DNA from: a virus
DNA: 64,000 bases
IMG/VR virus record: IMGVR_UViG_3300023174_000140
Location: 12,759-76,758 of that record
Direction: 5' to 3' (one strand)
The translations under genes and the position numbers were made by a program. This document shows positions 10,382 to 14,086 of the stretch, in pieces; the stretch's first letter is position 1; each line of letters begins with the position of its first letter. The notes beneath the pieces were generated by a model that ran no database searches, was not told where the DNA came from, and saw only the letters and a list, made by a program, of their open reading frames with translations.

Positions 10382-10568
10382 GTATATCGTTTTGCGAGAT
10401 GGAGTTCGTGTGAGTGAAGATATGCACTCAAAGATTGAAGATGCCGAGCAAGAAGCGGAGTTTTGGCGTAAAGTCATCCGCTCTTGGCCTGATGGAACGA
10501 AAGTTACCATCAAGAAAATCGGTGGATAACTTCGGAGGCTGACATTGAGCTACGGCTTAGTGTTGATT

Positions 10569-10659
10569 GCTAGGGTCGTCTAACTGGTTAAGACCCACGA
10601 CTTATACTCGTGAAGCTCTAGATTTGAGCGTAATGAAGGTTCGAATCCTTCCCCTAGTA
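10569..10659 (+). tRNA. tRNA with UAU anticodon (Ile, AUA) and long variable arm
   Basis: GCTAGGG/CCCTAGT-A acceptor, CACGA-CTTATAC-TCGTG, 22-nt V region with GCTC/GAGC stem, GAAGG-TTCGAAT-CCTTC. Confidence 0.85.
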
Positions 10660-10921
10660 TGTAAAGCCTTATCATTCAACGAATTATTTTTATTGACTAT
10701 TTCTCTAACTCTTGTATATTAAACCTATGACAAACAAACAATCAGTTCCATTCTATGTGATGAATGTGTTCGGCCAAGATCGAGCTATCATCCTAAACAC
10801 CTCAATCCGTATGTGCACAACCAAAGAGACTTGTTCTCTCAAAGACTTGGAAAATTATGCCAAGGCTTTTGCAGTAGAGTTCTTTCAAGTGCCAAAACCT
10901 TCCAGCTTTCCAGCTAAAGTG

Positions 10922-12485: not shown

Positions 12486-12516
12486 AGGGCGAGGCCTAAA
12501 AAACCTCGCCTTTTTT
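12486..12516 (+). terminator. Rho-independent terminator
   Basis: GGCGAGG-CCTAAAAAA-CCTCGCC followed by TTTTTT. Confidence 0.8.
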
Positions 12517-12549
12517 ATTGCAGATAAACAAAAGTATGTTAAGATAGTT

Positions 12550-12767
12550 TTAGTTCTTCGATATCAGAGAAGGTTGACCGCAAGGTTGCAGTTCTGGAAA
12601 GTTTCTAATGGAAACATTAGTTATATATAACGGAACGCCAATACTTCTCTTGGCGAGTCTGACTAACTCCCATAAGAGGATGAACCTGCCAACGCCCAGA
12701 GTCAGAGGCGAAAGAGGAGCAGGATATTCCTTTACGAAATCATGAGCGTAGAGGGTCGAAGAACTAA
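12550..12767 (+). ncRNA. putative large structured RNA (~218 nt) with pseudoknot
   Basis: 12-bp closing stem TTAGTTCTTCGA/TCGAAGAACTAA; GNRA hairpins GACC-GCAA-GGTT and CTAATG-GAAA-CATTAG; CCTGC/GCAGG; TCTGACT pairs with loop AGTCAGA; promoter TTGCAG 12518/TAAGAT 12540. Confidence 0.78.
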
Positions 12768-12943
12768 TTTTTATTACGCCATTTTTCTCTGTGATTGAAA
12801 ACCCAATCTAACAGAGCTTTTTCAAAACCAATATCGTGTCCTGCTTTTTCGCTTTCGAGCCATTTGTGCTTTAGGATTTCATTTCGCTCTTCAATAAACT
12901 TTTTATATAGAGCAGACGATTCAAGTAAACCAGAAACCTTCAT
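12764..12943 (-). CDS. DUF4032-like small protein (59 aa, not in ORF track)
   Basis: MKVSGLLESSALYKKFIEERNEILKHKWLESEKAGHDIGFEKALLDWVFNHREKWRNKN; GTGTAAT starts 14 nt upstream of the ATG. Confidence 0.75.
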   Translation of the reverse strand: MKVSGLLESSALYKKFIEERNEILKHKWLESEKAGHDIGFEKALLDWVFNHREKWRNKN

Positions 12944-13246: not shown

Positions 13247-14086
13247 ATGAAAGTAAACGAAATTATCACCGAAAAATTCATCGAAGCCCTCAACAAAGGT
13301 GTCATCCCTTGGCAGAAGCCTTGGAAAGTTTTTGACCTCTGCAACGGAGTTTCCAAAAAGAATTATAGGGGCATCAATCAATTTTTGCTACGGATGCTGG
13401 CTTCTGATGATTTCTTTTTTACATTCAATCAGATTAAGGAACTAGGTGGGAGAATCAAAAAGGGCGCTAAGTCTCATATGGTAGTTTATTACAAACTCCT
13501 CAAAACAGAAAGCAACAATGAAACCAAAACTTTCCCCATGATGAGATTCTATAAAGTTTTTGGATTGAGTGATATTGAGGGCATGAAGTGGAAACAGCCC
13601 GAAGTTAAGAAGCTGGATTTTTCACCAGTAGAAGAAGCAGAAAAGTTGATTAACAAGTGCGTGATTCAGATTAAACATGGTGGAAGTCGTGCCTGTTATT
13701 ATCCACAGGAACATAAGATTGATTTGCCCCCAAAAGAAAACTTCACCAGCGTTGAGGAGTATTATTCTACAGCGTTCCATGAGATTGGTCACGCTATGCA
13801 CAAGGCTACAAGCGATGAAGTGAAGAATGGATTTGGAACGCAGAATTATAGCAAAGAAGAATTGACAGCAGAGATTTTTGCAAGCCTTTGCCTTAACTTC
13901 TGCGGAATTGATTCGGAAAAATGCTTTAACAATTCTGCGAGCTATCTTTCAAGCTGGCTTCAAGTTTTGAAAAAAGATATGAACTTTATCATCTCAGCTT
14001 CTAGCAAAGCCCAAAAAAGATTTGATGCTTTTATTGATAGAAAAGAAAGCGAAGAGATTCCAGAAGAAGAAGCTGCAACTGCTTAA
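13247..14086 (+). CDS. ardC: ArdC-like antirestriction protein (DUF1738 ssDNA-binding + zincin-like domain)
   Basis: IPWQKPW...YRGIN...TFNQIKELGGRIKKG.K...YYSTAFHEIGH...YSKEELTAE...SASYLSSWL. Confidence 0.9.
   Translation: MKVNEIITEKFIEALNKGVIPWQKPWKVFDLCNGVSKKNYRGINQFLLRMLASDDFFFTFNQIKELGGRIKKGAKSHMVVYYKLLKTESNNETKTFPMMRFYKVFGLSDIEGMKWKQPEVKKLDFSPVEEAEKLINKCVIQIKHGGSRACYYPQEHKIDLPPKENFTSVEEYYSTAFHEIGHAMHKATSDEVKNGFGTQNYSKEELTAEIFASLCLNFCGIDSEKCFNNSASYLSSWLQVLKKDMNFIISASSKAQKRFDAFIDRKESEEIPEEEAATA

What the first reader, a model, noticed from the sequence alone, without database searches (positions are those of the whole stretch)
12550..12767. Second stand-alone ~218-nt RNA with a 12-bp terminal helix and a pseudoknot
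Seen: starts at the predicted TSS of TTGCAG/TAAGAT, just after a terminator. 5' TTAGTTCTTCGA pairs perfectly with 3' TCGAAGAACTAA. Internal features are AGAGAAG/CTTCTCT, GACC-GCAA-GGTT, CTAATG-GAAA-CATTAG, CCTGC/GCAGG, CCTTTACG/CGTAGAGG, and CGCC-loop-GGCG whose loop AGTCAGA pairs with upstream TCTGACT (pseudoknot). An alternative CGCCAA/TTGGCG pairing suggests a switch. It has the same size and closed-end design as the 5774 RNA but no obvious sequence similarity. Inference: the phage deploys a set of distinct large ncRNAs as early genes.
Basis: partly seen in the sequence, partly recalled or inferred. Interest (0 to 1): 0.8.

Follow-up and report, generated by a model that had tools for sequence, protein, structure and literature searches.

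The report
Self-pairing structured RNA of lake phages
The flagged stretch is a real, separately transcribed, intricately folded non-coding RNA gene of an uncultured freshwater phage; it is the long form of an RNA family found in no catalogue, it sits among phage tRNA genes, one of its loops looks built to clip two copies together, and its job is unknown.

Summary
Observation confirmed. Window 12550-12767 (+) is a structured RNA gene, about 214 nt, with its transcript probably starting at A12552. It follows an upstream terminator and has its own host-type promoter with an extended -10. A terminal helix and a T tract close it.

It is the long form of a family whose commoner short form is about 130 nt. 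I found 105 distinct variants, all in freshwater phage or metagenome contigs. Most lie in tRNA islands, on the tRNA strand.

The fold is a four-way junction: P1, a P2-P3 arm, a P4-P5 arm and P6. Compensatory changes support it at 21 of 42 pairs in a MAFFT alignment and 30 of 37 in a model-fitted one. G-U pairs fix the strand as +. The long form adds a domain with two GNRA hairpins.

The pseudoknot core (GACU with AGUC) never varies, so covariation cannot test it. The proposed CGCCAA/UUGGCG switch is not conserved.

The P6 loop carries a six-base palindrome in 104 of 105 variants. It changes only by central dinucleotide swaps that keep it self-complementary, which is the published signature of an intermolecular kissing loop.

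There is no Rfam, INPHARED or genome match. Metatranscriptome contigs cover the RNA. Function is unknown. This scan has already met the same family on four other DNAs.

The parts
12488..12516 (+). Intrinsic terminator of the upstream unit (7-bp GC-rich stem, 9-nt loop, T run). Also scored as a terminator-like site on the minus strand.
   Evidence: Sequence; the scan finds the minus-strand version at 12510-12488; conserved in relatives.
12518..12545 (+). Promoter: -35 TTGCAG 12518-12523, TG of the extended -10 at 12537-12538, -10 TAAGAT 12540-12545.
   Evidence: Sequence. The same layout (-35 TTGAC, TGn, -10, 6 nt, then AGTTC) is found in 104 of 104 distinct family contexts.
12552..12765 (+). 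The RNA gene, long form, about 214 nt. Predicted start A12552; the end is not mapped.
12550..12561 (+). P1 5' strand, pairs with 12756-12767.
   Evidence: Perfect 12-bp inverted repeat. P1 covaries in short forms.
12562..12565 (+). P2 5' strand UAUC, pairs with GAUG at 12679-12682. This is my assignment by analogy with P2 of the short form.
   Evidence: Paired in 18 of 18 long forms but invariant. P2 covaries in short forms.
12566..12650 (+). Long-form insertion domain. P2a is 12566-12572 with 12644-12650. The P2b hairpin is 12576-12587 with a GNRA loop. P2c is 12588-12596 with 12631-12638. The P2d hairpin is 12605-12620 with a GNRA loop.
   Evidence: 100% paired in 18 sequences. P2d has 3 covarying pairs. 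Loops stay GNRA.
12652..12671 (+). P3 hairpin; loop CUGACUA at 12659-12665 carries the invariant GACU.
   Evidence: P3 covaries (4 of 5 pairs).
12672..12678 (+). Conserved single strand AUAAGAG between P3 and the 3' strand of P2.
   Evidence: Conserved in short and long forms. Its MFE pairing partner is not kept in L031, L177 and L195.
12685..12723 (+). P4-P5 arm. P4 is 12685-12690 with 12717-12723, with one bulged base. P5 is 12693-12696 with 12707-12710. The 10-nt loop 12697-12706 holds AGUC. There is an asymmetric internal loop.
   Evidence: P4 covaries between long and short forms. The P5 closing pair switches between U-A and C-G, 18 versus 17. The loop is invariant.
12659..12664 (+). Pseudoknot or kissing strand of the P3 loop, pairs with 12700-12705.
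   Evidence: Four core pairs are present in all members and never vary. The extension to 6-7 pairs occurs only in the window's subtype.
12729..12754 (+). P6 hairpin: stem 12729-12736 with 12747-12754, and a 10-nt loop 12737-12746.
   Evidence: all P6 pairs covary.
12740..12745 (+). Self-complementary hexamer UCAUGA in the P6 loop, the proposed dimerisation site.
   Evidence: A palindromic hexamer is present in 104 of 105 variants, in four versions that differ by central dinucleotide swaps.
12756..12767 (+). P1 3' strand.
12768..12775 (+). T-rich tract after P1, a possible termination signal.
   Evidence: Sequence. A T-rich tail is found in 76 of 82 well-bounded members.
12764..12943 (-). Convergent 59-aa ORF (weak DUF4032 match). 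Its stop codon lies inside the P1 3' strand. It is a neighbour, not part of the RNA.
   Evidence: Present downstream in 68 of 105 contexts.

Best explanation
**What is shown.** 12552-12765 (+) is an independent gene for a stable, highly structured non-coding RNA of a large uncultured freshwater phage. Host RNA polymerase should transcribe it from an extended -10 promoter, which makes it an early gene. It is the long form (about 214 nt) of an uncatalogued family whose basic form is about 130 nt.

The basic form is a four-way junction:
- a closing helix P1;
- an arm P2-P3 ending in a loop with GACU;
- an arm P4-P5 with a conserved asymmetric internal loop and an invariant 10-nt loop with AGUC;
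- a hairpin P6.

The long form carries an extra three-helix domain with two GNRA tetraloops inserted inside P2.

**What is inferred.**
- The six-base palindrome at the tip of P6 pairs with the same loop of a second copy, so the RNA works as a symmetric homodimer or a larger RNA-only or RNA-protein assembly. I put this at about 0.55.
- Like GOLLD and ROOL, it would be made from the phage's tRNA island during infection. It would act in trans as a scaffold or decoy rather than as a base-pairing or cis-regulatory RNA. I put this at about 0.3. Its target is unknown.
For: **Fold and family**
- The fold is better than all 200 shuffles (z = -4.19).
- 105 distinct variants were recovered from viral and lake metagenome contigs.
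- MAFFT alignment of 38 short forms: 94.2% of cells paired against 44-52% when slid. 21 pairs have compensatory changes. 0 of 500 shuffles reach the covariation score.
- Model-fitted alignment of long plus short forms: 30 of 37 pairs compensatory.
- Long-form helices are 93.2% paired, and the added hairpin loops stay GNRA.

**Strand**
- 129 G-U cells against 39 A-C cells.
- All 213 neighbouring tRNAs lie on the same strand.

**Own transcription unit**
- The promoter sits at a fixed distance in 104 of 104 contexts.
- There is a terminator upstream and a T-rich tail in 76 of 82 members.

**Expression**
- Six metatranscriptome runs hold part of the stretch.
- In two runs from different studies the contigs cover only about 12535-12806 and 12568-12771, not the flanking genes. 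In a third, the RNA contig has depth 24.9 against 4.6 upstream.

**Dimer**
- The P6 hexamer is UCUAGA (78 variants), UCAUGA (11), GUCGAC (13) or GUGCAC (2). Only one variant is non-palindromic and no single-step intermediates occur.
- PMC12286853 used this same kind of palindrome-preserving switch as evidence for the intermolecular kissing loops seen by cryo-EM in OLE and GOLLD.
Against: - No transcript ends, strand or abundance were measured. Contigs from RNA libraries can contain DNA and cannot show ends. Some of them run 15-25 nt upstream of the predicted start or past the T tract.
- The pseudoknot pairs never vary, so they rest only on conserved complementarity.
- All members come from one group of related freshwater phages. 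Relatedness therefore inflates the shuffle statistics, although the slid controls and the many double changes do not depend on it.
- The palindrome could instead be read by a dimeric protein, or reflect a DNA-level site.
- No partner protein or target is conserved next to the gene. The two commonest neighbours also flank a different RNA in relatives.
- Function is a guess by analogy with RNAs whose own function is unknown.
Confidence: 0.62

Rival explanations
1. A monomeric protein-binding RNA (decoy, sponge or RNP subunit). The invariant loops and the palindromic P6 tip are recognition sites for a protein, possibly a dimeric one, rather than RNA-RNA contacts.
For: The 10-nt P5 loop, the internal loop and the junction strands are conserved beyond what pairing needs. 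The gene sits in an early region beside anti-restriction-type genes such as the ArdC-like protein.
Against: A protein site would not need compensatory central-dinucleotide swaps that keep RNA self-complementarity in two separate loop versions. No conserved RNA-binding gene lies next to it.
Confidence: 0.17
2. A ligand- or factor-sensing attenuator. Formation of P1 next to the T tract stops transcription. When P1 is prevented, polymerase reads into downstream tRNAs or genes.
For: P1 is directly followed by a T-rich tract. Nine variants have a tRNA starting just downstream. There are many conserved unpaired bases. In the long form, an internal segment resembles the P1 5' strand and could compete for the P1 3' strand (alignment).
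Against: What lies downstream is not constant. It is a convergent gene in the window, a fresh promoter in many relatives, and a tRNA in only a minority. No riboswitch family matches.
Confidence: 0.07
3. A ribozyme, for example self-cleaving, that processes the tRNA-island transcript.
For: It is a compact junction fold with a loop-loop contact and invariant unpaired bases. Contigs from three RNA runs begin at exactly 12568, once joined to an adapter.
Against: No match to any Rfam ribozyme family even at E up to 10. Other contigs cross 12568. That position lies in the long-form insertion, which short forms lack. An end there is also what second-strand synthesis loss near a 5' end, or an assembly branch at the nearby variable site, would give.
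Confidence: 0.04
4. Not an RNA gene of the plus strand. Instead a DNA-level element (a mobile element with inverted ends, or a protein-binding palindrome cluster), or merely the structured 3' UTR of the convergent minus-strand gene.
For: 12-bp inverted ends. The slot varies between relatives. The minus-strand ORF ends inside the element, and a terminator-like site lies on the minus strand at 12510-12488.
Against: One copy per genome and no target duplications. Helices tolerate G-U but not A-C. A plus-strand promoter is fixed at the 5' end. Members exist without the convergent gene. RNA contigs in two runs cover the RNA but not that gene.
Confidence: 0.03

Closest known systems
GOLLD (RF01998) and ROOL (RF03087), large ornate RNAs of phages and prophages
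   Same: They are encoded by phages, often in or beside tRNA islands. They are independently folded with pseudoknots and kissing loops, have no known protein partner and no known function. Their symmetric kissing loops show palindrome-preserving covariation (PMC12286853).
   Different: No sequence or model similarity. The present RNA is 130-218 nt against about 580-800 nt. It is a simple four-way junction and at most a dimer is suggested, not a cage. It is found only in freshwater phage contigs.
HIV-1 dimerisation initiation site (DIS) kissing loop
   Same: A 9-10-nt hairpin loop with a central six-base palindrome, usually flanked by purines. Natural variants differ by changes that keep the palindrome. 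This comparison rests on my own knowledge of the DIS.
   Different: It is a retroviral genome-packaging signal, not a small phage RNA. There is no homology, and dimerisation here is untested.
phi29 prohead RNA (pRNA, RF00044)
   Same: A phage-encoded RNA of 120-174 nt, closed by a helix of its two ends.
   Different: No model match. The phage here is large and has a terminase, so it is not a phi29-type packaging system. The complementary loops here may well pair within one molecule.
Unnamed candidate structured RNAs predicted from IMG/VR (PMC10690425)
   Same: That survey mined the same kind of viral contigs for covarying intergenic structures of 29-151 nt, so the short form may be among its 8,495 unnamed candidates.
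   Different: I could not check this because the supplements are not held. That paper gives no description of this fold, its long form or the palindromic loop.

Membership tests
Any Rfam 15 family (includes GOLLD, ROOL, pRNA, Y RNA, tmRNA, riboswitches, ribozymes) | Score at or above the family's gathering threshold | tested here: not met
   The whole window and nine relatives give tRNAs only. At E up to 10, nothing credible overlaps the core.
GOLLD/ROOL-type ornate phage RNAs | Location in phage or prophage tRNA islands | tested here: met
   45 of 56 contexts have a tRNA within 1.5 kb. All 213 tRNAs are on the same strand.
GOLLD/ROOL-type ornate phage RNAs | Large size (over 500 nt) with many domains | tested here: not met
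   130 nt (short form) and 214-218 nt (long form).
GOLLD/ROOL-type ornate phage RNAs | Homo-oligomer held by kissing loops | tested here: inconclusive
   Palindrome-preserving switches occur in the P6 loop.
tRNA / tmRNA | Cloverleaf recognised by ARAGORN or the tRNA model | tested here: not met
   ARAGORN and Rfam find five tRNAs elsewhere in the window and none here.
Riboswitch or leader (cis-regulator) | A constant regulated gene directly downstream on the same strand | tested here: not met
   Downstream is a convergent ORF, a new promoter or a tRNA, depending on the relative.
Intrinsic terminator only | A short GC-rich hairpin plus T run explains the whole element | tested here: not met
   About 70 pairs in 11 helices are conserved over 214 nt.
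Mobile element with terminal inverted repeats | Several copies per genome and target-site duplication | tested here: not met
   A single copy in the 76.8-kb record and one per related locus.
Small protein gene | An open frame kept in homologues | tested here: not met
   The 45-aa ORF at 12608-12745 is crossed by 1- and 2-nt indels between long subtypes. Most of it is absent from short forms.

The most novel reading that the evidence does not exclude
This would be a miniature counterpart of the GOLLD and ROOL assemblies: a 130-218-nt phage RNA that builds a symmetric RNA-only dimer. The same promoter-to-terminator slot of the tRNA island holds interchangeable, unrelated folded RNAs in sister phages. 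Together they would form a cassette system of early-expressed RNA decoys or scaffolds used in host takeover or counter-defence.
Probability: 0.2. Interest if true: 0.85.

Novelty: new variant of a known kind. Interest (0 to 1): 0.7.

Why it matters
Natural RNAs that assemble with themselves are rare, and the known phage examples (GOLLD, ROOL) are large and hard to work with. This is a 130-nt family with strong covariation, a clear dimerisation signature, a natural long form with extra tetraloops, and evidence of expression in lakes. That would make it a small, tractable model for what tRNA-island RNAs of phages do.

It also shows that uncultured freshwater phages carry several promoter-driven folded RNAs in their early regions, and that such RNAs are swapped as cassettes between relatives.

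Tried and rejected
- **Rfam:** gathering thresholds on the window and on nine relatives, and E up to 10 on the locus, gave only tRNAs and chance hits.
- **Cultured phages (INPHARED):** near and distant DNA searches with the long and short forms found nothing. The terminase has no cultured relative above 27% identity, so no host could be named.
- **Species genomes:** the core pattern found nothing in 185,579 genomes.
- **Pseudoknot covariation:** a viral-contig scan with the P5 loop left free returned only known members, so no variant exists that could test the pseudoknot.
- **CGCCAA/UUGGCG switch:** rejected as a conserved feature.
- **MFE pairing of CUUCU with AGAGG:** rejected in favour of AGAGAAG/CUUCUCU. 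L031, L177 and L195 break the former without compensation.
- **Neighbour analysis:** no RNA-specific partner gene emerged.
- **Pfam scans of 28 window proteins:** no RNA-handling enzyme turned up.
- **Supplements of PMC10690425:** not held, so prior listing as an unnamed candidate could not be checked.
- **Exact ends from metatranscriptome contigs:** contigs cannot show ends. The repeated start at 12568 is left unexplained.
- **K-turn, 11-nt receptor, hairpin ribozyme, hammerhead, SRP, TPP and SAM-I:** I compared their motifs by eye and found no convincing fit.

Full report
**1. The observation**

- As a single RNA strand it folds to -69.5 kcal/mol (z = -4.19), and none of 200 dinucleotide shuffles folds as well. 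The opposite strand gives z = -3.11.
- The perfect 12-bp terminal inverted repeat is real (I12). Three other spaced 12-bp inverted repeats occur in the same 64 kb, so that helix alone is not beyond chance. The case rests on homologues.

- A terminator hairpin at 12488-12510 with a T run ends the upstream unit.
- A -35 TTGCAG (12518-12523) and a -10 TAAGAT (12540-12545) follow, with a TG two bases before the -10, which makes it an extended -10 promoter.
- A T-rich tract follows the terminal helix.
- A 59-aa ORF on the minus strand (12764-12943, weak DUF4032 match) converges on the element. An ArdC-like gene follows at 13247.

**2. Where the window comes from**

- The window is part of a 76.8-kb IMG/VR virus record rated about 50% complete.
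- It encodes a T4-type terminase N domain and a cell-wall hydrolase, and it carries five tRNAs.
- No cultured phage is close: the terminase is below 27% identity and there is no DNA match.
- Related contigs reach 170-210 kb.

**3. Homologues**

The ArdC-like neighbour gave 27 related viral loci. Their flanks align, but the slot between terminator and convergent ORF differs.
- Some loci hold the 218-nt form.
- Many hold a shorter RNA of about 130 nt that shares a core with it.
- Five (L017, L018, L021-L023) hold an unrelated closed-end RNA of about 180 nt behind the same promoter.

A 16-base core pattern found further loci.
- Viral contigs: 58 stretches, of which about two thirds are true members and the rest are chance hits inside genes.
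- Metagenome contigs: a longer pattern found 116 stretches.
- 185,579 species genomes: none.

Altogether there are 105 distinct variants. The sequencing runs that hold the window's copy are labelled lake or freshwater metagenomes. A covariance model built from 38 short forms (R1) hits the window at 12642-12766 with 47.2 bits. It finds exactly one copy per locus and none in the loci with the other RNA.

**4. Structure**

*Short form.* It is a four-way junction.
- P1 is formed by the two ends.
- P2 leads to hairpin P3, whose loop holds GACU.
- P4, with a bulged base, and P5 are separated by an asymmetric internal loop. P5 closes an invariant 10-nt loop that holds AGUC.
- P6 is a hairpin.

On the MAFFT alignment A1:
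- 94.2% of cells are standard pairs, against 44-52% when partners are slid by 1-3 columns;
- 21 of 42 pairs show changes on both sides;
- no shuffle of 500 reaches the observed covariation score.

A striking single case is the closing pair of P5, which is U-A in 18 sequences and C-G in 17.

On a model-fitted alignment of long and short forms together (A3), 30 of 37 pairs are compensatory, including three in P4. That alignment leans towards the model, and it forces a false P1 5' strand on the long forms.

G-U and U-G cells (129) far outnumber A-C and C-A cells (39). This fixes the RNA strand as plus.

*Long form.* The 18 long forms are 94% identical, so they carry less signal, but every helix holds at 93.2% paired. 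In window coordinates:
- P1 is 12550-12561 with 12756-12767.
- P2 is 12562-12565 with 12679-12682.
- The inserted domain comprises:
  - P2a, 12566-12572 with 12644-12650;
  - hairpin P2b, 12576-12587;
  - P2c, 12588-12596 with 12631-12638;
  - hairpin P2d, 12605-12620.
- P3 is 12652-12671.
- P4 is 12685-12690 with 12717-12723.
- P5 is 12693-12710.
- P6 is 12729-12754.

P2d has three covarying pairs. The P2b and P2d loops vary only within GNRA, which points to tertiary docking.

Three variants break the alternative without compensation, whereas changes in the former only create G-U pairs.

The CGCCAA/UUGGCG 'switch' occurs in seven of 18 long forms, two of them with a mismatch. It occurs in no other member, so it is not a conserved feature.

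*Pseudoknot.* GACU in the P3 loop and AGUC in the P5 loop are complementary in every member and never vary. A scan that left the loop free found no variants. The pairing is therefore plausible but untested by covariation.

In the window's subtype a U-to-A change in the P5 loop does two things. It extends the loop-loop pairing to six or seven pairs, and it breaks a competing local extension of P5 that RNAalifold predicts in the short forms. This mildly favours the loop-loop contact.

**5. A gene of its own**

- In all 104 contexts with enough upstream sequence, the RNA's first bases (AGTTC) lie 6 nt after a -10 hexamer. That hexamer is preceded by TGn and, at the usual spacing, by TTGAC. The start is therefore most likely A12552, and the two U at 12550-12551 are probably not transcribed.
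- A T-rich tract follows P1 in 76 of 82 well-bounded members.
- Of 56 contexts with at least 1.5 kb on both sides, 45 have a tRNA within 1.5 kb. All 213 tRNAs within 3 kb lie on the RNA's strand. In nine, a tRNA starts just after the RNA.
- The two commonest protein neighbours are an 86-88-aa ORF upstream and the DUF4032-like ORF downstream, each in 68 contexts. They also flank the other RNA type, so they are not specific partners.

**6. Expression**

Six metatranscriptome runs hold part of the 701-nt query. I laid contigs of four of them.
- In two runs from different studies, contigs cover only about 12535-12806 and 12568-12771 and none of the flanking genes.
- In a third run, the contig over the RNA has depth 24.9 against 4.6 upstream.
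- In a fourth run, a contig starts at 12568 directly behind an Illumina adapter. Contigs of two other runs start at the same base.

If these are standard dUTP libraries, which is my assumption, the adapter orientation fits a plus-sense RNA. A start about 16 nt inside the RNA is what second-strand synthesis often leaves.

These are contigs, not reads. They cannot prove ends, strand or level, and RNA libraries can contain DNA. I count this as moderate support for an abundant transcript.

**7. The self-complementary loop**

The tip of P6 carries a six-base palindrome in 104 of 105 variants.

| Hexamer | Variants |
|---|---|
| UCUAGA | 78 |
| UCAUGA (the window's, at 12740-12745) | 11 |
| GUCGAC | 13 |
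| GUGCAC | 2 |
| UCUAGG (non-palindromic) | 1 |

- The two pairs of versions differ by a swap of the central dinucleotide (UA to AU, CG to GC). This is the only kind of double change that keeps a palindrome, and no single-step intermediates occur.
- Both versions of the first pair occur among long forms that are otherwise nearly identical.
- Adjacent bases of one chain cannot pair with each other, so such covariation implies pairing between two molecules.
- The cryo-EM study of OLE, ROOL and GOLLD used this argument to confirm their symmetric kissing loops (PMC12286853).
- The loop format is 9-10 nt with a central hexamer, usually between purines. From my own knowledge, it resembles the HIV-1 dimerisation site.

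**8. What it is and how it probably works**

*Shown:*
- a conserved, covarying, plus-strand RNA fold;
- its own promoter;
- residence in a tRNA island;
- presence in RNA libraries;
- no catalogue match.

*Inferred:*
- a compact fold locked by the loop-loop contact;
- dimerisation through P6 (about 0.55);
- a trans-acting role as an RNA-only or RNA-protein assembly made early in infection (about 0.3).

By niche and behaviour the closest things are GOLLD and ROOL, whose functions are themselves unknown. By membership it belongs to neither.

Rivals, in order of my estimate, are:
- a monomeric protein-binding RNA;
- an attenuator that controls read-through;
- a ribozyme;
- a DNA-level or antisense element.

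Each is listed in the rival explanations with its evidence.

**9. Novelty**

- No Rfam 15 family matches.
- A 2023 survey of IMG/VR may list the short form among thousands of unnamed candidates. I could not check this.
- This scan's own notes show that four earlier follow-ups met the same family on other DNA and reached the same reading. I reached mine before reading them. They are not independent evidence.
- I class it as a new variant of a known kind: phage tRNA-island RNAs that pair with themselves. It is far smaller than the known ones and unrelated to them in sequence.

Noticed in passing
L017:2825-3005 (also L018, L021, L022, L023): In five sister phages the same promoter-to-terminator slot holds a different closed-end RNA of about 180 nt, with a 13-bp terminal helix. 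It starts with the same first bases but has no similarity to this family (no R1 hit, no Rfam hit). Folded RNAs seem to be swapped as cassettes.
   Followed up: partly
I did not test it for covariation.
   Followed up: partly
window 12620-12631: A perfect 12-base palindrome (GUUAUAUAUAAC) lies inside the long-form insertion. In three relatives one A becomes G, which would still give G-U pairs in a self-duplex. It may be a second self-pairing site or just an AU-rich linker.
   Followed up: no
window 12568: Contigs of three metatranscriptome runs begin at exactly this base, once directly behind an Illumina adapter. The cause could be a real processing site, a library artefact near the 5' end, or an assembly branch at the nearby variable base 12566. 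This is unresolved.
   Followed up: partly
window 12642-12654: An internal segment of the long form resembles the 5' strand of P1 of the short form, and the covariance model aligns it there. This suggests that the long form arose by a 5' extension of a short form. It also leaves room for a competing pairing with the 3' strand of P1.
   Followed up: no
window 10568-10660: The tRNA called Ile (anticodon UAU) is 93 nt long, far above the usual length, and the same long tRNA recurs in relatives (about 91 nt, e.g. L007:65-155, L025:22-112). It may have a long extra arm or an insert.
   Followed up: no
L044:850-893 and relatives (L057, L081, L099): In one subgroup the promoter spacer itself contains a copy of the RNA's first bases (AGTTCTTTC), and promoters of this type stand in tandem along the region. 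The meaning is unknown.
   Followed up: no
window 12764-12943 (minus strand): The convergent 59-aa DUF4032-like ORF ends inside the 3' strand of P1. If its transcript runs on to the terminator-like site at 12510-12488, it would be fully antisense to the RNA. That would be a possible late antisense partner.
   Followed up: no
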